This document shows, one piece after another, positions 2,105 to 53,728 of a stretch of DNA of 53,728 bases. The DNA comes from Escherichia phage ES2-BCU-3. Where the stretch lies: sequence record PV733669.1; one strand, 5' to 3'. Each line of letters opens with the position of its first letter. The first letter of the stretch is position 1. The translations under genes and the position numbers were made by a program. The notes under the pieces are model-generated. The model searched no databases. It worked only from the letters and a program-made list of their open reading frames with translations, and was not told the DNA's origin.

Positions 2105-2401
2105 ATGGCAAAATTGAAAAGTACCCGTGACGCAACAGAAGAACTGTTGAGCACGATGCGTCGTATTAAACTCGAACCTCTGGAGATAATGCAACGGGCT
2201 ATTACACAGGCTGAAGCCGAAAGTGATTATAAAGCCATGATGGACGGCGCTCTTGGTATCATGCCATACATGTACCCTAAACTGAAAGAGTCTGTTGTTA
2301 AAGCAGACATCGACCAGACACTTAACGGTAACGGCGTAAACCTGAACATTACTATCGGCGACCAAAAAGTTAACGTCGACGATGAGGATAAGGAAGAGTA
2401 A
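2105..2401 (+). CDS. terS: Putative terminase small subunit
   Basis: Small ORF immediately upstream of the large terminase with TAATG junction; ATG 2105 preceded by GAGGA (track ORF starts at TTG 2087). Assignment by position only. Confidence 0.35.
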   Translation: MAKLKSTRDATEELLSTMRRIKLEPLEIMQRAITQAEAESDYKAMMDGALGIMPYMYPKLKESVVKADIDQTLNGNGVNLNITIGDQKVNVDDEDKEE

Positions 2402-3849
2402 TGAATCTCGACTTCCACCTGCACGACAGACAAGGTGCCGCTCTGCAGTCTCAGGCAACTGAGATTCTGTACGGCGGTGCTGCAGGTGGTGGCAAGTCCC
2501 ACCTTATGCGTGTAATGTCCATCATTATGTGCTGCATGATTCCTGACTTGCAGATTTATCTGTTCCGACGCAACTATAATGACTTGACGGCTAACCATAT
2601 GGTTGGACCCACAAGTTATCCTGCCTTGCTGGATGGCATGTGTAAAGCCGGCAAGTGTAAGATTAACTATTCCAGTAACACAATCAAGTTCTGGAATGGC
2701 GCAAACATCAAGCTGTGTCACCTGCAGTATGAGAAAGACATCTATACCTACCAGGGTGCTGAGATTCACGTTCTGCTGATGGATGAGCTTACTCACTTCT
2801 CAGAAACGATGTATCGATTCCTTCGTAACCGTGTTCGACTCGGTGCACTGAAGGTACCTGAGAACTTCTTCCGGCCGCTGCCTCTCATCTTTTGTGGGTC
2901 GAACCCCGGCGGTGTAGGACACAACTGGGTTAAGCGTACGTTTGTAACTGCTGCTCCTCCAATGAAGATTGTTAAGCAGGACAAACGTGAAGGTGGTATG
3001 GCTCGACAGTACATCCCAGCTAAAATGACTGATAACCCGACGCTGATGGAAAACGACCCTGACTACGGCGACCGTCTTGAAGGTCTGGGTGACCCTGCTC
3101 TTGTGTCTGCAATGAAAGAAGGTGACTGGGATATTGTTGCTGGTGGTGCACTTGACGATGTATGGTCGACTAAATGTATCATACCTCGTATGCGTATACC
3201 TCGCGGATGGACAATTGAACGTTCTCTTGACTGGGGTTCTACTCACCCGTTCTCTGTCGGCTTCTGGGCAATTGCTAACGGCGCGCCTCTTATGGACGAC
3301 GAAGGCAATGAGTACTATATACCGCGCGGCTCTATTATCCGTATTGCTGAGTGGTATGGTTGTTCTGAAAAAGAAGCTAACAAAGGTATTAAGCTGTCCG
3401 CCGTAGAAGTTGCTGAAGGTATTCTCCGAATCCAGGAGAACCTGCAAGCTGGCGGATGGATAGATAGTAATGTCAACGCAGGTCCTGCTGATGGTCAAAT
3501 CTACGCGAGCAAAGAGAAGGACGTGGAGACTATTGCGAAGAAAATGGAAGACGCCGGAGTAACCTGGGTCAAAGCCGATAAATCGCAAGGGTCGAGAATA
3601 AATGGCCTCGAGCTATTCCGTCAGCTCCTGAAAAATGTTAAGATGGACGAAACGGAAAAGCCGGGTATTTATTTCATGGAAAACTGTCCGGCAGCAATAA
3701 ACACGTTGCCAGTTCTTCCTCGTGATAAGAACAACACTGAGGACGTAGATACCAACTCGGAAGACCACGTATATGATGATTGTCGTTACATGGTTGTAAG
3801 AGGTATCAACCGTTATACTACATCAATCAAGATTAATATGGGACGGTAA
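2401..3849 (+). CDS. terL: Terminase large subunit
   Basis: Walker A GGAAGGGKS near the N-terminus and Walker B-like VLLMDE; 482 aa; followed directly by a portal-sized gene. Confidence 0.8.
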   Translation: MNLDFHLHDRQGAALQSQATEILYGGAAGGGKSHLMRVMSIIMCCMIPDLQIYLFRRNYNDLTANHMVGPTSYPALLDGMCKAGKCKINYSSNTIKFWNGANIKLCHLQYEKDIYTYQGAEIHVLLMDELTHFSETMYRFLRNRVRLGALKVPENFFRPLPLIFCGSNPGGVGHNWVKRTFVTAAPPMKIVKQDKREGGMARQYIPAKMTDNPTLMENDPDYGDRLEGLGDPALVSAMKEGDWDIVAGGALDDVWSTKCIIPRMRIPRGWTIERSLDWGSTHPFSVGFWAIANGAPLMDDEGNEYYIPRGSIIRIAEWYGCSEKEANKGIKLSAVEVAEGILRIQENLQAGGWIDSNVNAGPADGQIYASKEKDVETIAKKMEDAGVTWVKADKSQGSRINGLELFRQLLKNVKMDETEKPGIYFMENCPAAINTLPVLPRDKNNTEDVDTNSEDHVYDDCRYMVVRGINRYTTSIKINMGR

Positions 3850-40280: not shown

Positions 40281-40326
40281 CGTACTCTCCTTGGAGGAAG
40301 AGGCGGGATTGCTCCCGCCGTATTGA

Positions 40327-48034: not shown

Positions 48035-48342
48035 TTTTTCCGGCGGAGGCAATGCATATAATCATATATTTGAATATATATCACTTAAACCTTTGTTTTA
48101 TATACTCTTTTCGAATCCATAATCCATATAGCTTTCTTTAAATAATTAAGGGGGTAATAAGGGTACACAAGACCAGATAAAGGGGTAGATATTATTATTT
48201 ATTTATTATATATATTATATATATTTATATATTAGATAAAGAGTAAGTAAAACAGCTACTTAGAAGGCTAGAATCCATATTCACGGGAATATAGTTATAT
48301 GGATTACAGACCGGATAAAGAAAATCCTCCGCCGGCGGAAAA
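48035..48342. other. AT-rich block bounded by inverted repeats (candidate replication origin)
   Basis: Inverted repeats tttttccggcggagg(48035..48049) and cctccgccggcggaaaa(48326..48342); a 45-bp run of only A/T (48191..48235); internal aatccatat/atatggatt inverted repeats; two AGGGGTA direct repeats. Confidence 0.45.
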
Positions 48343-48379
48343 TTTAAAAAAGTCGGATTGCTAAATAAATTCGTAGACG

Positions 48380-48408
48380 TTTACACTGTGATTAATATGT
48401 AGTACAAT
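48380..48408 (+). promoter_or_regulatory. Sigma70-like promoter (TTTACA-17-TACAAT)
   Basis: TTTACA 48380..48385; TACAAT 48403..48408. Confidence 0.45.
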
Positions 48409-48458
48409 AATCACCAATATCCCAAATTAGCAGAATTTTCAACAGGATTGAATACAAT

Positions 48459-48887
48459 ATGGTTAACATTCGAGTAAAAGGCCAAAACTTTGAGCGTAAA
48501 ATGGCAAAAAAATTCAATGAATCATTTGGATTGAGTGTTGAACGCAATCTTCAACAGTCTATTAATGGCGGGGATGACTTACTCGGGGTACCGTTTTTCA
48601 GCGTTGAGCTTAAAAAACACAATACAAAAGCCATCGGTACGTGGTGGCGTCAATGTGAGGAGTCAGCAAAGCGTCATGATAAGACGCCTGTACTAATATA
48701 CGAACTTCCACGCCAAAAGCCAGTCGTTGTAATGCGACGCAGTGACGTGGATGTTGGTATATTACCACTTGGTACAACTTTCAAAGAGGCAACTAACAGG
48801 CTCTTTGTGGGCTTGGTAGAGCTAACATGGGAACAATTTTGCCAGGTCTACAACTTTTACGTTGCGCCTGGCGTTGATGTCAGTTAA
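48459..48887 (+). CDS. Hjc-like Holliday junction resolvase (PD-(D/E)XK), putative
   Basis: KGQNFERKMAKKF...G and DDLLGVPFFSVELKK parallel archaeal Hjc motifs KGxxxER and D...ExK. Confidence 0.5.
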   Translation: MVNIRVKGQNFERKMAKKFNESFGLSVERNLQQSINGGDDLLGVPFFSVELKKHNTKAIGTWWRQCEESAKRHDKTPVLIYELPRQKPVVVMRRSDVDVGILPLGTTFKEATNRLFVGLVELTWEQFCQVYNFYVAPGVDVS

Positions 48888-49068
48888 CAGGTTTTAGCTC
48901 GTCGCAGATAACACGCTGGTTTTGTGCAGGCACTAATCCCAGTTCTAACAAAGTGTATGGACTATCGGCAGCACATTGTTCTACGGTAGTCCATTCAGGT
49001 TTCGCTTCGACAACTTTGTATTCACAGTCGTGTGCAGCGATACAAGTAGCAAGAATCAAACCAATCAT
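48880..49068 (-). CDS. Hypothetical small protein
   Basis: 62-aa ORF with hydrophobic N-terminus. Confidence 0.4.
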   Translation of the reverse strand: MIGLILATCIAAHDCEYKVVEAKPEWTTVEQCAADSPYTLLELGLVPAQNQRVICDELKPVN

Positions 49069-49314
49069 TTATTTACTCCTGATGCCAAGTTTATTGAACA
49101 ACCAAATACACATATCAACCCAGGTTACTGGTACAGTTTTCGGGGGTTGATAAGACCATGCTTTTGCAGCTCGCTCCGCATTTTCTTCTCGCCTGCGCGC
49201 TTGGCGTAATACTTGACTGTCAGTAATGCCGGCAGAAAAAACATCGGCAATGTGAGATAAATCGCGTCGATGAACACGTCCAACCAAATCATTCAGTTGC
49301 TCCTCAGAAAACAT
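49069..49314 (-). CDS. Hypothetical protein
   Basis: 81-aa ORF; GGAG RBS. Confidence 0.45.
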   Translation of the reverse strand: MFSEEQLNDLVGRVHRRDLSHIADVFSAGITDSQVLRQARRREENAERAAKAWSYQPPKTVPVTWVDMCIWLFNKLGIRSK

Positions 49315-49426
49315 AACTCAACACCATACATACGATAACAATACCAATTACAATCCGCCACATGCTACGATTAACAGCATATACCGGATTCTCAGTAGTA
49401 TACTCAACAACATGTTTACGGACCAT
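49304..49426 (-). CDS. Small hydrophobic peptide (40 aa), not in the ORF track
   Basis: ATG at 49426 preceded by AAGGAGG (6-nt spacer); encodes MVRKHVVEYTTENPVYAVNRSMWRIVIGIVIVCMVLSYVF with one TM-like helix; stop TGA 49304..49306. Confidence 0.4.
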   Translation of the reverse strand: MVRKHVVEYTTENPVYAVNRSMWRIVIGIVIVCMVLSYVF

Positions 49427-49448
49427 AATCGGCCTCCTTGTGGGTTAA

Positions 49449-49493
49449 TTCAATCATGAGGACTTTCATCAAATCCTCATTGTTGAATTACTC
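49449..49493 (-). promoter_or_regulatory. Conserved-flank intergenic hairpin (early operon element 1)
   Basis: Minus strand reads GAGTAA-TTCAACA-[ATGAGGA...TCCTCAT]-GATTGAA; 7-bp stem between the upstream stop and the next RBS. Confidence 0.5.
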
Positions 49494-49793
49494 ATCATCA
49501 GCAGTATAATTGGAAATATCTTCCGCCAATGTTTCAATGTCAAACACCGCATTCAAGAAAGAATGCTCAACAACAGCTTTATCAAGTTCATCATCATAAT
49601 AAAGCTCAATGTAACTACCATACAACTCTTCTACACTTTCAATTGCAGGATAAATCTCATGCACTGCAGCATAGAAATCATCAAAATTATCAAAACAACG
49701 ACAATTTGTCAACTCTTGACCTTGCATCATTTCAACTAACTCATTAGTCAGATAAAAATAGCAATTGTGCTGGTTAATAATGAATGGTGTCAT
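49488..49793 (-). CDS. Hypothetical acidic protein
   Basis: ATG at 49793 with GAGGAGAG RBS (track ORF starts at TTG 49820); strongly acidic. Confidence 0.5.
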   Translation of the reverse strand: MTPFIINQHNCYFYLTNELVEMMQGQELTNCRCFDNFDDFYAAVHEIYPAIESVEELYGSYIELYYDDELDKAVVEHSFLNAVFDIETLAEDISNYTADDE

Positions 49794-49818
49794 GTTTCTC
49801 TCCTCAGTGATATTAATC

Positions 49819-49839
49819 AAGTCCCGGATACCGAGACTT
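49819..49839 (-). promoter_or_regulatory. Intergenic hairpin (early operon element 2)
   Basis: 9-bp stem aagtcccgg/ccgagactt with 3-nt loop; lies upstream of the 49793 start. Confidence 0.4.
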
Positions 49840-49847
49840 TGTTAATT

Positions 49848-50048
49848 TCACTCAATCATCACCTGAGCTACTATTATACACTCTTTATTGAATCTGGTAA
49901 ACACTTTACCTGCATTGGTACGTTTTGCACCAGCTTTTAATGCAGTTTGTGTCCAGACATTCCACTCTTCAGTTGTCAAAAATTGTTGGTCAACTTTTGG
50001 AGGTAACTGTTGAGCTATATGAACTGTAGTAAATTTGATTAATGGCAT
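49848..50048 (-). CDS. Hypothetical protein
   Basis: ATG at 50048 (MPLIKF...), 10-nt overlap with the upstream gene; track ORF starts at 50078. Confidence 0.4.
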   Translation of the reverse strand: MPLIKFTTVHIAQQLPPKVDQQFLTTEEWNVWTQTALKAGAKRTNAGKVFTRFNKECIIVAQVMIE

Positions 50049-50275
50049 ACACCACCATAACTTTGGATTTGTACACAAAAACTTCTGAAATTGTGAAGAG
50101 GAATATCGTCACAATTAATGAAGTATTGACCAGTTAAAGATTTCAAACCAAACCGCACATAACCTTTGTTAAGGTTGAGACGCACAATCTCACAAAATAA
50201 ATCATATGCGCCCAATTCCTGAACTTTTGGATGATTGATGTCTGGGTTAAAGTCAATCAGCATTTCTACTTTCAT
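50039..50275 (-). CDS. Hypothetical protein
   Basis: ATG at 50275 with AGGAG RBS (track ORF starts at TTG 50302). Confidence 0.5.
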   Translation of the reverse strand: MKVEMLIDFNPDINHPKVQELGAYDLFCEIVRLNLNKGYVRFGLKSLTGQYFINCDDIPLHNFRSFCVQIQSYGGVCH

Positions 50276-50296
50276 GTTTCTTCTCCTGTTGAATAA

Positions 50297-50347
50297 TTTC
50301 AATCATGAACTATCGCAACTTTGATAGTTCATTGTTGAAACTATTGC
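50297..50347 (-). promoter_or_regulatory. Conserved-flank intergenic hairpin (early operon element 3)
   Basis: Minus strand reads TAG-TTTCAACA-[ATGAACTATC...GATAGTTCAT]-GATTGAAA; 10-bp stem 50305..50314/50323..50332. Confidence 0.5.
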
Positions 50348-50529
50348 AATTTTGTACTAATTTGAATCGTGAGTCTGAATTGTTCAAGTAAGTCGCTAAC
50401 GCGAGAATTATCTTCAACACTAGACTCAATTTGATCACTAACAATTTGAGCATTTGATTCAAGAAGTTCAATCAAGTGCGCCAATTCGTCTGCTGTCAGT
50501 TTAAGTTCTTTCATAATTTTAACAACCAT
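50341..50529 (-). CDS. Hypothetical small protein
   Basis: 62-aa acidic ORF. Confidence 0.45.
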   Translation of the reverse strand: MVVKIMKELKLTADELAHLIELLESNAQIVSDQIESSVEDNSRVSDLLEQFRLTIQISTKLQ

Positions 50530-50774
50530 CCCATTACCAGTCCAAGGTCAGCAATATCATCACTGTCACGTTCACCGTCTTTGAATTCAGTACAGAACAT
50601 TCGCATGATTTGTGCCAAATTCATATTGATGACATACGCATGAATTTTCAAGTCTTCAAGAGGAGTGTCAAGTACTAATTGACCAAACTCCTGAAAACTT
50701 TCGTCCCAATTCAAGAACCATTCACGTGCGTAATGATGCAACTTGTCCATCAGGTCTTTGTCGTCAAGTGTCAT
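50511..50774 (-). CDS. Hypothetical protein
   Basis: 87-aa ORF; RBS AGGAG upstream of ATG 50774. Confidence 0.5.
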   Translation of the reverse strand: MTLDDKDLMDKLHHYAREWFLNWDESFQEFGQLVLDTPLEDLKIHAYVINMNLAQIMRMFCTEFKDGERDSDDIADLGLVMGWLLKL

Positions 50775-50796
50775 GTTTTTTACTCCTGTTGATTAA

Positions 50797-50842
50797 TAAT
50801 TTCAATCCAGACCTCTCGTAAGAGGTCTGTCAGAAATTACTC
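50797..50842 (-). promoter_or_regulatory. Conserved-flank intergenic hairpin (early operon element 4)
   Basis: Minus strand reads GAGTAA-TTTCTGAC-[AGACCTCT-UACG-AGAGGTCT]-GGATTGAAA; 9-bp stem 50808..50816/50821..50829. Confidence 0.5.
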
Positions 50843-51403
50843 TTCAGTTTCTTGTTCCGGAGCTTTATCATCAGCTTTATCATCAGTTTTTACAACTGAT
50901 TTACCGTCAGTGATTTTACCGGATTTTACATCATTACGGTAGTATGACATATAAGACTGTACAACACGTTTTGCCTTAATATCATCATCTGCCATTTCAC
51001 AAGCTTTCATTGCATCTGCAAGTGCCAGCTTGGAATCTTCTTTGTCCAGCAAGTTGTAATCTTTGAACACGGTATAGCATGTGTCCTTAGTTGATGGACC
51101 AGTTGAAGTTTTACGGGTGCCACCAGTGCTGGATTTTTGTTTGACTGCAACATGCTGAACTTCAAGCTGATTGAGTTCATCAAACAATGCCTTCATCATC
51201 ACTTCTTTGGAATCTTTGATTGTGCAGGTAGTCTCATCATTGAGACTTTTAATCATTTTCAACAGTTGATTGCGTTCAAAATGCTGGAGAGCATTCTGCT
51301 GCACAATCATTGACGCCATAGTGTCGTCAGTTGTCAGACCGTCCATCACAGCTTCAACAGAAAACGCGGAAGTAATGTAAACGTAGTTGATTGCAGTAGT
51401 CAT
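50837..51403 (-). CDS. Hypothetical protein (188 aa)
   Basis: ORF with GAGAGGA RBS; Lys/Asp-rich C-terminus. Confidence 0.5.
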   Translation of the reverse strand: MTTAINYVYITSAFSVEAVMDGLTTDDTMASMIVQQNALQHFERNQLLKMIKSLNDETTCTIKDSKEVMMKALFDELNQLEVQHVAVKQKSSTGGTRKTSTGPSTKDTCYTVFKDYNLLDKEDSKLALADAMKACEMADDDIKAKRVVQSYMSYYRNDVKSGKITDGKSVVKTDDKADDKAPEQETEE

Positions 51404-51455
51404 GTTTGTATCCTCTCATTGATAGATTTTTGATTGTCAATCCTTGACAAGTAAG

Positions 51456-51501
51456 TCCAATCATGACAACTTTGGTAAGTTGTCATTGTTGGAAATTACT
51501 C
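51456..51501 (-). promoter_or_regulatory. Conserved-flank intergenic hairpin (early operon element 5)
   Basis: Minus strand reads GAGTAA-TTTCCAACA-[ATGACAACTT-ACCA-AAGTTGTCAT]-GATTGGA; stem 51464..51472/51477..51485; a second palindrome ttgtcaa/ttgacaa lies at 51433..51451. Confidence 0.5.
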
Positions 51502-51645
51502 TTGATATTTGACTACTTGTGACTGGATAAAATCAACACAATCGTCCACGTCCATTGACTCAAAGTCTGGAACTGGTCCATTGTTAATGTTGACACACCA
51601 CAGTCCCTCATTGTCATCATACCAAAGTGTATAATTGTCTTTCAT
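51496..51645 (-). CDS. Hypothetical small protein (first gene of the early minus-strand operon)
   Basis: ATG at 51645 with GAGGTGA RBS 6 nt upstream; track ORF extends to GTG 51699 through a hairpin. Confidence 0.45.
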   Translation of the reverse strand: MKDNYTLWYDDNEGLWCVNINNGPVPDFESMDVDDCVDFIQSQVVKYQE

Positions 51646-51675
51646 AATAGTCACCTCATGTATTAGTTTCCAGGT

Positions 51676-51699
51676 GTGACTACTGTTACCAATAGTCAC
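51676..51699 (-). promoter_or_regulatory. Leader hairpin with the same 5' flank as the intergenic hairpins
   Basis: Minus strand reads GTAATAGTTTCAACCA-[GTGACTA...TAGTCAC]; 7-bp stem 51676..51682/51693..51699. Confidence 0.4.
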
Positions 51700-51886
51700 T
51701 GGTTGAAACTATTACTTGTGTTACTATCAACAAGAAACATGTTAACCAGATTGTTAAAGAGCAAAAGACACCATTGACCATCTACCAGATGTGTCTGTTG
51801 ACTGGTTGAGTACTAACAACATAAGTAACTACATAAATCCTCCTGAACCATTCTTGTGTTGAATTGTTCAACACATTCAATAAATA

Positions 51887-51916
51887 TATAATAGTCCAAT
51901 CGCTATTGATTGTACA
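51887..51916 (-). promoter_or_regulatory. Candidate early promoter for the minus-strand small-gene operon
   Basis: TTGTACATAAA at 51910..51920 matches the recurring GTGTACATA -35 region; TATATA/TATTAT -10-like hexamers 17-18 nt away on the minus strand. Confidence 0.35.
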
Positions 51917-51966
51917 TAAAAGAATTGCAAGTTAGTGCAAGTATTTAGAAACGATAATCACTTGCG

Positions 51967-52226
51967 GTTGATAGTGGTTCTCGATTACAATTGATATAGT
52001 TACTCGAGTAATCACTTCGTTTGAAATGGTCGGCAGGGGTTATAGTTACATAGGGGTGCTATCTAATAGGGCCGGCGAAATTATTTATAAAAATATAATT
52101 TCAATCTGAATTGTAGACGCTTTGAACTACTTCGGCCGAAACTGCTACACGGGTAATAGTTACTCTGGTAATGATTGCGTTGGTAATAGTTCACAACGAA
52201 ATAGGGTGCGGGGGGTATAATCACTC
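51967..52226. repeat. Iteron-like array of about 13-bp direct repeats (consensus GGTAATAGTTACTC)
   Basis: Copies at 51993..52005 (gatatagttactc), 52039..52049 (gttatagttac), 52152..52165 (ggtaatagttactc), 52182..52194 (ggtaatagttcac); degenerate copies at 51967, 52006, 52167, 52214; inverted copy at 51707..51715; AT-rich tract 52081..52100. Confidence 0.55.
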
Positions 52227-52412
52227 TGTGTGACCAATTTTAAGCGCCGACGGATTTTTTTATTTTTTGCTCCTTTTTAGACTCCTAGTACTCAATCATC
52301 ATCATATCAATCACGATTGTGTTACCATAAAGCCTTTTGTACAGAAATTGGAGGCCCCTCCAAAAATTTTTTATATTTTTCTGGAATTGTGTAGACATCT
52401 GTTAAAAAGTGG

Positions 52413-52441
52413 TGTACTTTTTTCTCACCACGCGCTATCAT
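52413..52441 (+). promoter_or_regulatory. Early-type promoter (GGTGTACT -35 region, TATCAT -10)
   Basis: TGTACT 52413..52418, 17-nt spacer, TATCAT 52436..52441; -35 inside inverted repeat gtggtg/caccac. Confidence 0.45.
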
Positions 52442-52505
52442 TAATTATCATCAACAACGACGTGTCAACGGACTTGCCTTGACCGTCCCTACTTGTGGGT
52501 TACAT

Positions 52506-53015
52506 ATGGAACTAGTCACTTTGACTCCGTATCCTCCGCAATTAGCTGTTGTGCTGAGTAAAAAACAGCATGATGAGCTGATTAAAGAGATGGATTTGCC
52601 TCCTTTTGGCCACTGGGAGGATGAATTTCCTGTCGCTGCAACAACTTTTACCTTCAACCGTAAGAGCTATCCCTATTGCTTTATAGTCGTAGAGCTCTAC
52701 CTCCCGGACGACCTCCGCTACAATACCATATCCCACGAAGGCATCCATGTCATGTCGTCATTAATGAAGTATGTCGGTCTTAAGTACGACGCAGATAACG
52801 ACGAATGGTATGCTTATCAGCATGATTTTATCGTAAACGCCATTTGTAAGGCTCATGACGAGTATATAAAGGCCAAAAAAGAGCAAGAAATTGCTCCAAA
52901 ACGCATAGAAACGGGCAATCATCCGTCTCTTGATGACACTCCACCTTGGCCTGAGCATGACCCAATGAAGGCCTTACTTTCCGAACCATCATCACAGGAT
53001 TTTTTAAATGACTGA
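52506..53015 (+). CDS. HExxH zinc metallopeptidase-like protein (putative)
   Basis: Contains HEGIH, a zincin-type HExxH motif; ATG at 52506 (track ORF starts at TTG 52479). Confidence 0.45.
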   Translation: MELVTLTPYPPQLAVVLSKKQHDELIKEMDLPPFGHWEDEFPVAATTFTFNRKSYPYCFIVVELYLPDDLRYNTISHEGIHVMSSLMKYVGLKYDADNDEWYAYQHDFIVNAICKAHDEYIKAKKEQEIAPKRIETGNHPSLDDTPPWPEHDPMKALLSEPSSQDFLND

Positions 53016-53277
53016 AGCAAACATCCTCGACCTGCCAGTAATCGAAAAAGGCAAACATCTCGAAGTTACTGTTGCGTATGACGCAAAATGCCGTTTACGC
53101 AAGCTTCGTGGCGGCTTTATCACGCGAAACATACAGGCAACGGCCAAATTTGGCTGTTACGGTGAGTTGGATATTGATTCAGCTAAACATCAGCTTGAAC
53201 ACTTGCTTGCCAATAAGTATGGCGCTCGTCGTATTCGCTGGGAAATGTTCAAAATCGTTTCGGAGGTAGAGCTGTGA
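53008..53277 (+). CDS. Hypothetical protein
   Basis: 89-aa ORF overlapping neighbours at both ends. Confidence 0.45.
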   Translation: MTEANILDLPVIEKGKHLEVTVAYDAKCRLRKLRGGFITRNIQATAKFGCYGELDIDSAKHQLEHLLANKYGARRIRWEMFKIVSEVEL

Positions 53278-53728
53278 TTAATATCATGTTTGCAATGGGT
53301 CAGGAAGGCGAATTTGGCCGCTCGCTTGAACTGCACCGTAAGCTGGTTAGTGAAGCCAAAACCGCAGAAGAGGTCCGTCTGCTTCCATTATCCGGTCTCC
53401 CATGGAAGTGTCCGAGTGACATGCTGTTTTTCAGGACTATGACTAATTCAATCGCAACAGAACCAGGCTATAATGCCTTTGAGCAACTCCGGGGTCTCTT
53501 CCCACAGGAGCATCTGCTCAATATGATTCGCGATGTGACAAGCAGAATGGTCGGTCATAGTGTATTGTTAGCCGGTGTGAAAACGTATCAGACTATGAGC
53601 TTACCTATGACAGCCCACCGAATACTGCTGCCGGTGTCTCATTCTATCTTGGCTTCAGAAGGCTACAACAATATAGGTGAGTTGGCAGCAGCACTTGAAG
53701 ACCGTGGTTCAGACGTTTGGGTTGTTGG
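53274..53728 (+). CDS. Dihydrofolate reductase, 5' portion (runs off the window end; continues at 1..344)
   Basis: GTG 53274 overlapping the upstream stop (GTGA) with GGAGG 7 nt upstream (alternative ATG 53286); LPWKCPSDMLFFRTMT matches the DHFR PWxxPxDxxxF region. Confidence 0.7.
   Translation, partial: MINIMFAMGQEGEFGRSLELHRKLVSEAKTAEEVRLLPLSGLPWKCPSDMLFFRTMTNSIATEPGYNAFEQLRGLFPQEHLLNMIRDVTSRMVGHSVLLAGVKTYQTMSLPMTAHRILLPVSHSILASEGYNNIGELAAALEDRGSDVWVV
53602..53728. repeat. Terminal direct repeat, copy 2 (identical to 1..127)
   Basis: Exact 127-bp match to the window start. Confidence 0.9.

What the first reader, a model, noticed from the sequence alone, without database searches (positions are those of the whole stretch)
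51967..52226. Iteron-like array of GGTAATAGTTACTC repeats in the divergent early control region
Four close copies and several degenerate ones of a ~13-bp motif lie within about 260 bp, next to an AT-rich tract (52081..52100) and between the divergent early promoters (51887..51916 minus, 52413..52441 plus). Arrays like this are typical of origins bound by an initiator, or of operator clusters for an early regulator. The motif does not look like the sigma70 hexamers used elsewhere in the genome.
Basis: seen in the sequence. Interest (0 to 1): 0.6.

Follow-up and report, generated by a model that had tools for sequence, protein, structure and literature searches.

The report
Repeat array at phage genome terminus
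The repeats are real and conserved, but they sit 22-300 bp inside the right physical end of this Salmonella phage's DNA, in two duplicated "repeats plus cut site" modules, so they are more likely a docking platform for the DNA-packaging enzyme than a replication origin or a promoter switch.

Summary
The window is a Loughboroughvirus genome (ZCSE2/S144/AEV23-like, 98-99.9% identity). The array is real. Six sites match the 11-bp near-palindrome GTAAT-N-RTTAC within 2 mismatches in 391 bp, against about 1 in shuffles. Three of them form an exact 15-bp tandem, and the motif is not enriched elsewhere in the genome.

The array forms two homologous ~100-bp modules, A (51992-52088) and B (52152-52263). 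Each has 3-5 repeats, a G-run, a GCCGRCG heptamer and an A/T run.

The B heptamer is the right boundary of the direct terminal repeat (DTR), cut at 52248|52249. It aligns to the column with the boundaries in fHy-Eco03 (PhageTerm) and in the Sz record. My boundaries (48334..52248) give 3,915 bp, exactly the DTR length published for AEV23.

The three tandem sites keep position and register in 8 phages of 5 clades while their sequence drifts. I found no DnaA boxes, no Rfam match and no RNA covariation. No site overlaps a promoter hexamer.

Best reading (about 0.45): a terminus-associated protein-binding platform, probably for the small terminase, that positions cleavage. This is inferred, not shown. 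Regulator, origin and T5-like injection-stop readings remain open.

The parts
48334..52248 (+). Direct terminal repeat (DTR), collapsed to one copy in this window; 3,915 bp.
   Evidence: Boundaries were transferred by alignment from fHy-Eco03 (PhageTerm DTR of 3699 bp) and from the Sz record (4263 bp). The resulting length of 3915 bp equals the PhageTerm value published for AEV23.
48331..48343 (+). Site L: GCC|GGCGGAAAAT, the left DTR boundary (cut 48333|48334).
   Evidence: It is homologous to position 1 of fHy-Eco03 and of Sz. The AEV23 record has foreign IS5/host DNA fused exactly here. The 13-nt pattern occurs only at L, A and B.
51992..52088 (+). Module A: repeats a2, a3, (a4) and a5, a G-run, the GCCGGCG heptamer and an A/T run.
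   Evidence: It aligns locally to module B with score 56. Together with the stretch just upstream (51915-52114) it is the best conserved large block of the gap, 0.76-0.90 identity across 5 clades.
51953..51983 (+). Degenerate upstream units: GATAATCACTT (51953) and GTTGATAGTGGTTCTCG (51967).
   Evidence: Read from the sequence. They are nearly invariant in 8 phages. Assigning them to the motif family is my judgement.
51993..52003 (+). Site a2: GATATAGTTAC.
   Evidence: 2 mismatches; invariant ATTGATATAGT in 8 phages.
52008..52018 (+). Site a3: GTAATCACTTC.
   Evidence: 2 mismatches. It is homologous to b2 in the module alignment.
52039..52049 (+). Site a5: GTTATAGTTAC. It is preceded by GGGG and starts 35 nt before cut position A.
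   Evidence: The distance is also 35 nt in fHy-Eco03 and in yarpen (read).
52071..52083 (+). Site A: GCC|GGCGAAATTA, an L-like heptamer. The GCCGGCG core is invariant in the panel; phage KM has TCCGGCG. Whether it is cut is unknown.
   Evidence: The downstream 50 nt resembles the L downstream region: an A/T run, then TAGACG at +41 (A) and +40 (L).
52078..52100 (.).
   Evidence: Equivalent A- or T-rich runs follow L and B.
52152..52263 (+). Module B: repeats b1-b5, a G-run, the GCCGACG heptamer and a T-run.
   Evidence: Conservation is 0.59-0.72, but the motif register is kept.
52153..52193 (+). Three tandem sites at exact 15-bp spacing: b1 GTAATAGTTAC, b2 GTAATGATTGC, b3 GTAATAGTTCA.
   Evidence: Two or three of the sites recur at the same aligned positions, 15 bp apart, in all 8 phages; all three are recovered in 6 of them.
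52215..52225 (+). Site b5: GTATAATCACT, degenerate here. The homologue is GTAATTGTCAC in fHy-Eco03. It is preceded by GGGGGG and starts 34 nt before cut B.
52246..52258 (+). Site B: GCC|GACGGATTTT, the right DTR boundary and right physical end (cut 52248|52249).
   Evidence: The LPSEYT record is linearised 7 nt away.
51888..51916 (-). Leftward sigma-70-like promoter (TGTACA-17-TATTAT) for the small genes inside the DTR.
   Evidence: TTGTACA is invariant. The promoter is predicted, not mapped.
52348..52363 (.). Bidirectional terminator-like hairpin, TTGGAGGCCCCTCCAA.
52422..52451 (+). Rightward sigma-70-like promoter (TTCTCA-18-TATCAT) for ORF01. It lies outside the DTR.
   Evidence: the flanking block TAAAAAGTGGTGTACTTT is invariant.

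Best explanation
The array is the repeated part of a duplicated terminus module. Each module consists of 3-5 copies of the near-palindrome GTAAT-N-RTTAC (half-sites GTAA and TTAC alternating every 7-8 bp), a G-run with a last motif copy, a GCC|GRCG heptamer about 34-35 nt further on, and an A/T run.

Shown:
- The heptamer of module B is where virion DNA ends. It is the right boundary of the 3,915-bp direct terminal repeat, at 52248|52249.

Inferred:
- A phage-encoded sequence-specific protein, most likely the small terminase (candidate ORF 2105-2401), binds as dimers or an oligomer.
- It coats the array and positions the large terminase (2401-3849) to cut at the heptamer.
- This would work as lambda gpNu1 does at cosB next to cosN, or SPP1 G1P at pacL/pacR around pacC.

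The array would then mark the end at which packaging of a concatemer starts or stops. The left boundary (L, 48333|48334) shares only the heptamer and A/T run. It carries different flanking repeats (CCGGAT), so the two ends would be recognised differently.
For: 1. Position. The array ends 22 bp from the DTR right boundary. That boundary falls in the same alignment column in fHy-Eco03 (PhageTerm plus restriction digests) and in the Sz record.
2. Length. The predicted DTR of 3915 bp equals the PhageTerm figure for AEV23.
3. Restriction mapping. The S144 work independently puts a physical end in this gap.
4. Module coupling. A and B are homologous over repeats and heptamer together. All 8 phages keep both modules. 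The distance from the proximal site to the cut is 35 nt (A) and 34 nt (B) in the window and in fHy-Eco03, and 35 and 33 nt in yarpen (read).
5. Selection on the motif. Each of 8 phages has 4-6 sites against about 1 in shuffles. The tandem sites keep position and 15-bp register while module B is only 0.59-0.72 identical.
6. One locus only, as for cos and pac sites. The heptamer-plus-A/T pattern occurs only at L, A and B, all on one strand. GCCGGCG alone occurs 6 times, so further recognition elements are needed.
7. Alternatives that could be tested came out negative.
Against: - No binding or cleavage data exist, and the binding protein is unidentified.
- The putative small terminase has no Pfam or PDB match, and its single-sequence AlphaFold model is poor at pLDDT 60.
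- The left boundary L is cut in relatives but lacks the GTAAT motif. A resemblance seen in the window is not conserved.
- Site A has the best heptamer and the best-conserved array, yet the available DTR determinations (PhageTerm for fHy-Eco03 and AEV23; the Sz record) place the end at B, not at A.
- The array lies 3.6 kb from the terminase genes.
- It is also directly upstream of the leftward promoter, so a regulatory role fits equally well by position.
Confidence: 0.45

Rival explanations
1. Binding sites for an early or middle phage DNA-binding protein that builds a nucleoprotein complex upstream of the leftward promoter, to shut off or activate the small DTR genes. It might also protect the nearby DNA end, as phi29 p6 does at genome ends (recalled from general knowledge).
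For: - The motif is palindromic, which suits a dimeric helix-turn-helix protein.
- The array begins 37 bp upstream of the -35 of the 51916-51888 promoter.
- The DTR genes look like host-takeover genes: they are small, have low GC and no known function. One of them, g05 in fHy-Eco03, is toxic to E. coli.
Against: - No site overlaps a -35, a -10 or the start region.
- The sites span -45 to -340 from the promoter, which is unusual for repression.
- The rightward promoter is at least 165 bp away, beyond the DTR boundary and a hairpin.
- This reading does not explain the fixed coupling to GCCGRCG heptamers or the duplicated module.
- No regulator gene is recognisable nearby.
Confidence: 0.2
2. A replication origin. 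An initiator would bind the repeats and melt the adjacent A/T tract.
For: - Clustered repeats lie next to a 100% A/T tract.
- The cumulative GC-skew minimum lies near here.
- The locus is noncoding and conserved.
Against: - There are no DnaA boxes, and no initiator-like gene is found next to the array.
- The 15-bp period is not helically phased.
- The A/T tract belongs to the heptamer module, which also occurs at L and B.
- GC skew tracks transcription direction throughout the genome, including the small plus-strand island at 45-48 kb.
Confidence: 0.1
3. A T5-like DNA-entry pause or stop signal. The left DTR with its takeover genes would enter first, and the repeat-rich untranslated region at the inner DTR boundary would halt transfer.
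For: The architecture parallels T5 Repeat Region 3. That region is 1.2 kb, untranslated and repeat-rich, lies mostly inside the left terminal repeat, and overruns the boundary by 270 bp. Here about 600 bp lie inside and 257 bp outside. The DTR carries small genes, one of them toxic in a relative.
Against: - The paired DnaA boxes central to the T5 proposal are absent.
- No recognisable family, A1/A2-like or otherwise, was found among the five DTR ORFs scanned; the rest of the DTR genes were not scanned.
- This is a myovirus unrelated to T5, and two-step transfer has never been reported for it.
- The T5 signal itself is not functionally defined.
Confidence: 0.08
4. A structured non-coding RNA, or a neutral remnant of a tandem duplication.
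For: The region is a tandem duplication. PhagePromoter predictions exist within it in the S144 record.
Against: - No Rfam family matches.
- The RNAalifold covariation term is -0.98 kcal/mol for the 70-pair consensus structure.
- The TATAAT at 52216 is not conserved in relatives.
- Both modules and the motif register are kept across 5 clades, which argues against neutrality.
Confidence: 0.03

Closest known systems
Lambda cosB (R3-I1-R2-R1) next to cosN, and SPP1 pacL/pacR or P1 pac repeats flanking the cut
   Same: Several short repeats within 50-150 bp of the terminase cut site. The locus is unique in the genome. Repeats lie on both sides of a candidate cut (site A) and to one side of the proven end (site B).
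   Different: This is a phage with long direct terminal repeats, not a cos or headful phage. The module is duplicated. The sites are not next to the terminase genes. Binding by the small terminase is not shown.
T5 Repeat Region 3, the proposed injection stop signal (Davison, bioRxiv 10.1101/866236)
   Same: A long untranslated, repeat-rich and highly conserved region. It straddles the inner boundary of a long terminal repeat that carries early genes.
   Different: No DnaA boxes, no long inverted repeats of the IRD'/IRC' type, a different phage lineage, and no evidence of two-step DNA transfer.
T7 short repeat arrays (SRL/SRR) beside the 160-bp terminal repeat and the pacB region
   Same: Arrays of short repeats immediately adjacent to a direct-terminal-repeat boundary in a phage that packages from concatemers.
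   Different: The T7 repeat is 160 bp, and packaging is linked to the phage's own RNA polymerase. This phage has no RNA polymerase, and its motif is unrelated.
Iteron-type origins (lambda ori, plasmid Rep iterons)
   Same: Clustered repeats next to an A/T tract.
   Different: The period is 15 bp and the sites are palindromic. There is no adjacent initiator gene and no DnaA boxes. The A/T tract belongs to the cut-site module.

Membership tests
Terminase recognition site (cosB/pac type) | Lies next to the terminase cleavage site or physical genome end | tested here: met
   The array ends 22 bp from the DTR right boundary at 52248|52249.
Terminase recognition site (cosB/pac type) | Several short sequence repeats at one locus, unique in the genome | tested here: met
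Terminase recognition site (cosB/pac type) | Conserved in phages that share the terminase | tested here: met
   Site positions and register are kept in 8 phages of 5 clades.
Terminase recognition site (cosB/pac type) | Bound by the small terminase and required for cutting and packaging | not testable with these tools
   This needs gel-shift or footprinting experiments and mutants. The candidate small terminase (2105-2401) has no informative homology.
Iteron-type replication origin | Tandem direct repeats of about 17-22 bp in helical phase | tested here: not met
   The period is 15 bp and the units are palindromic 11-mers.
Iteron-type replication origin | Adjacent A/T-rich unwinding element | tested here: inconclusive
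   A 100% A/T tract is present at 52078-52100, but the same kind of run follows the heptamers at L and B.
Iteron-type replication origin | Cognate initiator gene, often with host DnaA boxes | tested here: not met
   There are no DnaA boxes in the gap, and the neighbouring ORFs have no family match. An unrecognised initiator cannot be excluded.
Operator cluster of an early regulator | Sites overlap or abut promoter hexamers or the transcription start | tested here: not met
   The nearest site is 37 bp upstream of the -35 of the leftward promoter. The last site is at least 165 bp from the rightward promoter. The promoters are predicted, not mapped.
Operator cluster of an early regulator | Palindromic sites for a dimeric regulator | tested here: met
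   The consensus is GTAAT-N-RTTAC. The SOI901 copy GTAATGATTAC is a perfect palindrome.
T5-type Repeat Region 3 / injection stop signal | Untranslated repeat-rich region that straddles the inner boundary of a long terminal repeat | tested here: met
   The gap spans 51646-52505 and the boundary is at 52248, compared with the T5 description.
T5-type Repeat Region 3 / injection stop signal | Paired DnaA boxes and large inverted repeats | tested here: not met
T5-type Repeat Region 3 / injection stop signal | Two-step DNA transfer | not testable with these tools
   This requires infection experiments.
Structured non-coding RNA | Match to a known family, or covarying base pairs | tested here: not met
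   No Rfam match; the covariation term is -0.98 kcal/mol.

The most novel reading that the evidence does not exclude
Site A (52073|52074) is a second working left-end cut site, so the phage can make two kinds of chromosome from one concatemer: long-repeat genomes (L to B, 3,915-bp repeat) and short-repeat genomes (A to B, 175-bp repeat). The GTAAT arrays on both sides of A would form the switchboard that selects the cut.

Three observations prompt this reading:
- A has the best-conserved heptamer.
- A shares about 50 nt of downstream sequence with L, including TAGACG at +40/+41.
- In the published S144 SspI digest, the 12.6-kb fragment is replaced by two bands of 5-7 kb. Ends at A and B predict 7.1 + 5.7 kb. 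Ends at L and B predict 10.9 + 5.7 kb.
Probability: 0.12. Interest if true: 0.55.

Novelty: new member of a known kind. Interest (0 to 1): 0.4.

Why it matters
How long direct terminal repeats are recognised and cut is poorly understood outside T7. This phage group offers a compact, comparable case:
- three sites share GCC|GRCG plus an A/T run;
- two of them are proven ends in close relatives;
- the third, internal site is better conserved than either;
- a short palindromic motif in a 15-bp tandem sits at a fixed distance from the cut.

That gives concrete targets for footprinting and mutagenesis.

There are also practical consequences. Most GenBank records of these therapeutic-candidate Salmonella, E. 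coli and Klebsiella phages are deposited as circularly permuted or arbitrarily opened sequences without the repeat. The heptamer rule would let them be re-oriented and completed from sequence alone.

Tried and rejected
- Rfam scan of the whole window: no hits.
- RNAalifold on the array in 8 phages: negligible covariation.
- DnaA boxes: only 2 in the genome, none in the gap.
- Chi sites near the ends: none within 3 kb.
- A GTAAT-like stretch 35-50 nt before L in the window: not conserved in S144, Sz, fHy-Eco03 or yarpen, so rejected as chance.
- The 52216 TATAAT as a promoter (annotated in S144): the -35 spacing is 20 nt, and the hexamer is absent in Rosemountvirus relatives.
- Small ORFs inside the array (52081-52224 minus, 52122-52220 plus): treated as non-coding. 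Most records annotate no gene here, and the alignment has single-base indels.
- Candidate small terminase and neighbouring ORFs: no Pfam or PDB matches, and only function-unknown PHROG families. The single-sequence AlphaFold model of the small terminase has pLDDT 60, too poor for fold search.
- Looking for more distant relatives in IMG/VR: one pattern found only 5 known-type genomes. A looser pattern gave mostly chance hits.
- Other copies of the modules elsewhere in the genome: none.
- A literature search for T7 pacB was swamped by PacBio papers, so the T7, lambda, SPP1 and P1 comparisons rest on recalled textbook knowledge.

Full report
**Identity and setting**

The window is an essentially complete genome of a Loughboroughvirus. 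It is 99.7% identical to Salmonella phage ZCSE2 over 51000-53728 (99.9% over the gap itself), 99.2% to S144 and 98.4% to Klebsiella phage AEV23. The neighbouring genus Rosemountvirus matches at about 72-78%.

The finding lies in an 860-bp stretch with no annotated gene. On its left is the first of a run of small minus-strand ORFs, which starts at 51645. On its right is the plus-strand ORF01, with its ATG at 52506.

- The exact 14-mer occurs once, and two further copies have three mismatches.
- The real unit is shorter: an 11-bp near-palindrome, GTAAT-N-RTTAC.
- Six sites match it within two mismatches in 51900-52290. They lie at 51993, 52008, 52039, 52153, 52168 and 52183. Dinucleotide shuffles give 0.96 on average and never more than 4.
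- The last three sites are exactly 15 bp apart, and Tandem Repeats Finder reports the same period.
- Related k-mers are concentrated here. WATAGTHAC has 5 of its 8 genome hits in the gap, and TAATAGT has 5 of 9. Nothing resembling the region occurs elsewhere in the genome.
- Because the motif is palindromic, the array can also be read as GTAA and TTAC half-sites alternating every 7-8 bp.

**Higher-order structure**

The array is not a simple run. It forms two tandem, homologous modules: A (51996-52088) and B (52156-52263). Each module has three parts:
- three to five motif copies, the last preceded by a run of G;
- about 24 nt further on, a heptamer, GCCGGCG in A (52071) and GCCGACG in B (52246);
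- a run of pure A/T.

**The decisive context: a genome end**

- fHy-Eco03 is a relative with direct terminal repeats of 3,699 bp. They were determined with PhageTerm and checked by restriction digests.
- Its right repeat boundary (..AAGCCCC|GGCAAATTTT) aligns with window 52248|52249, inside the module-B heptamer (GCGCC|GACGG).
- The independent record of phage Sz carries 4,263-bp identical ends. Its right boundary falls in the same alignment column.
- The left boundaries of both phages (..GCC|GGCG.. and ..GCT|GGCG..) are homologous to window 48333|48334 (CCGCC|GGCGG).
- These transferred boundaries predict a repeat of 3,915 bp, both in the window and in AEV23's own sequence. The AEV23 paper reports a PhageTerm repeat of exactly 3,915 bp.
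- In the AEV23 GenBank record, 1.7 kb of IS5/host DNA is fused to the phage sequence exactly at the left boundary. That is what a misassembly at a physical end would look like.
- Two other records are linearised within 7 and 12 nt of B and L.

The finding's array therefore occupies the last 22-296 bp of the terminal repeat. In virion DNA it is present twice: once at the extreme right end, and once at the junction between the left repeat and the unique sequence.

**Three related sites**

A 13-nt pattern, GCCGRCGRAWWWT, occurs only at L, A and B, all on the plus strand. I derived it after seeing the sites, so it is a description and not a test. GCCGGCG alone occurs six times in the genome, so the heptamer cannot be the whole signal.

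Site A has two notable features:
- It resembles L downstream of the heptamer: an A/T run, then TAGACG at +41 in A and +40 in L.
- It is at least as well conserved as the two proven ends: the stretch 51915-52114 is 0.76-0.90 identical across five clades, against 0.59-0.72 for module B.

L lacks the GTAAT motif. It is flanked instead by three CCGGAT copies and an upstream (TA/TTA)n tract.

**Comparative evidence for selection on the motif**

All eight phages examined keep both modules. They fall into five groups: window/SE4, yarpen (with Sz), BP63 (with ciri), fHy-Eco03/KM, and SOI901/KE25.
- Each phage has 4-6 motif sites against about 1 expected.
- Two or three of the tandem sites sit at the same aligned positions with 15-bp spacing in every phage, and all three are recovered in six of the eight. 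This holds although the sequences differ. Examples are GTAATAGTTAC, GTAATTGTATC, GTTGTGATTAC and GTAATGATTAC for b1.
- The proximal site starts 35 nt before cut position A and 33-34 nt before cut B in the window, fHy-Eco03 and yarpen (read).

This pattern fits selection on protein-recognition sites. It does not fit a neutral duplication remnant.

**What it is not, as far as can be tested here**

- No Rfam family matches, and the consensus RNA fold has essentially no covariation support.
- There are no DnaA boxes in the gap and no Chi sites near the ends.
- The TATAAT at 52216, annotated as a promoter in S144, is absent from Rosemountvirus relatives.
- No motif site overlaps the hexamers of the two consensus promoters at 51916-51888 (minus) and 52422-52451 (plus). 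The rightward promoter is separated from the array by the repeat boundary and a terminator-like hairpin at 52348-52363.
- GC skew changes sign with gene orientation throughout the genome, so its minimum near the gap is not independent evidence for an origin.

**Most likely mechanism**

I commit to a terminus-associated binding platform.

Shown: the location at the end, the module architecture, the conservation of the motif register, and the uniqueness of the locus.

Inferred: a phage protein, most plausibly the small terminase, binds the half-sites as dimers or a higher oligomer. It then positions the large terminase to cut at GCC|GRCG about 35 nt from the proximal site. This would mark where packaging of a concatemer starts or ends. 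Lambda cosB-cosN, SPP1 pacL-pacC-pacR and P1 pac are the functional models, and I cite these from recalled knowledge.

The direction of packaging, and whether the B cut starts or terminates it, cannot be decided from sequence. My confidence is about 0.45, for four reasons:
- the binding protein is unidentified;
- L is cut without the motif;
- site A is not a reported end;
- the array also lies upstream of the early leftward promoter.

**Rivals**

- A regulator-bound nucleoprotein complex on the early promoter region, about 0.2.
- A replication origin, about 0.1.
- A T5-like DNA-entry stop signal, about 0.08. The architectural parallel with T5 Repeat Region 3 is striking, and a gene in the repeat of fHy-Eco03 is toxic to E. 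coli. However, the DnaA boxes central to the T5 proposal are missing.
- An RNA or a neutral relic, about 0.03.

**An unresolved conflict**

S144 has SspI sites at 40299 and 52903 (the second is taken from the paper's fragment table). Ends at L and B predict that the 12.6-kb fragment becomes 10.9 + 5.7 kb. Ends at A and B predict 7.1 + 5.7 kb. The paper reports two unexpected bands 'between 5000 and 7000 bp' and concludes that the repeats are short.

This fits A better than L, and it conflicts with the PhageTerm result for the near-identical AEV23. I could not inspect the gel. It leaves room for the more novel reading that A is a second functional left end.

**Novelty**

The terminal repeats of this phage group are published, for fHy-Eco03 and AEV23. 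In the papers and records I could read, I found no description of the cut-site heptamer, the duplicated module or the GTAAT array. S144 annotates only predicted promoters here.

Repeat arrays beside phage genome ends are a known kind of element. I therefore rate this a new member of a known kind, of moderate interest.

Noticed in passing
window 51646-51718 (minus-strand transcript, 5' UTR of the ORF that starts at 51645): The second, leftward cluster of motif-like sequences folds as a conserved hairpin: GUGACUAUUG...CAGUAGUCAC, with compensatory changes at 3 of its 10 pairs. An outer stem pairs GUAAUAGUU with the spacer between the ribosome-binding site and the start codon, again with compensatory changes. 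This looks like a translational or RNA-stability element, not part of the protein-binding array.
   Followed up: partly
window 51853-51873: The perfect palindrome GTGTTGAA-TTG-TTCAACAC lies just downstream of the predicted leftward promoter's start region. Rosemountvirus relatives carry a different palindrome (GACTG-GTCAAT-CAGTC) at the same place. It could be a 5' stem-loop of the early transcript or an operator.
   Followed up: no
window 51926-51961: The direct repeat TGCAAGT-TAG-TGCAAGT is followed by TTTAGAAAYGATAATCA. This is among the most conserved stretches of the gap: it is nearly invariant across the 8 phages compared, which include an Erwinia phage. It has no obvious sigma-70 geometry, and its function is unknown.
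   Followed up: no
window 48150-48360 (left repeat boundary): There is a conserved architecture upstream of the left end: G-rich blocks, a roughly 50-bp (TA/TTA)n simple repeat at 48190-48240, and three CCGGAT-type copies that flank the cut (the most upstream one reads CCAGAT in the window). A 10-pair hairpin is centred on the cut site CCGCCGGCGG.
   Followed up: partly
L018 (AEV23, OR810919.1 record 53895-55637): The deposited AEV23 genome (55,637 bp) is chimeric. It carries 1.74 kb of non-phage DNA, annotated as an IS5 transposase and a methyltransferase, joined exactly at the phage's left physical end. The paper interprets these as phage genes.
   Followed up: yes
S144 (MT663719.1), SspI sites 40299 and 52903: The published S144 restriction pattern (two new 5-7 kb bands) fits ends at sites A and B (7.1 + 5.7 kb). 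It does not fit the 3.9-kb repeat found by PhageTerm in AEV23, which predicts 10.9 + 5.7 kb.
   Followed up: partly
window 52348-52383: A bidirectional terminator-like hairpin (TTGGAGGCCCCTCCAA) is followed by an A/T-rich stretch and an invariant block, TAGACA-N17-TACTTT, upstream of the scanned ORF01 promoter. This may be a second promoter with an UP element.
   Followed up: no
window 52506-53015 (ORF01): S144 annotates this first gene after the terminal repeat as a Ku/Gam-like end-binding protein. Here it has no Pfam or PDB sequence match, only a PHROG family of unknown function. Its fHy-Eco03 homologue was detected in virions.
   Followed up: partly
whole genome; literature on S144 and fHy-Eco03: DNA of these phages resists most restriction enzymes whose sites contain G/C, so an unidentified base modification is suspected. 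If G or C is modified, recognition of the GCC|GRCG cut site could be affected.
   Followed up: no
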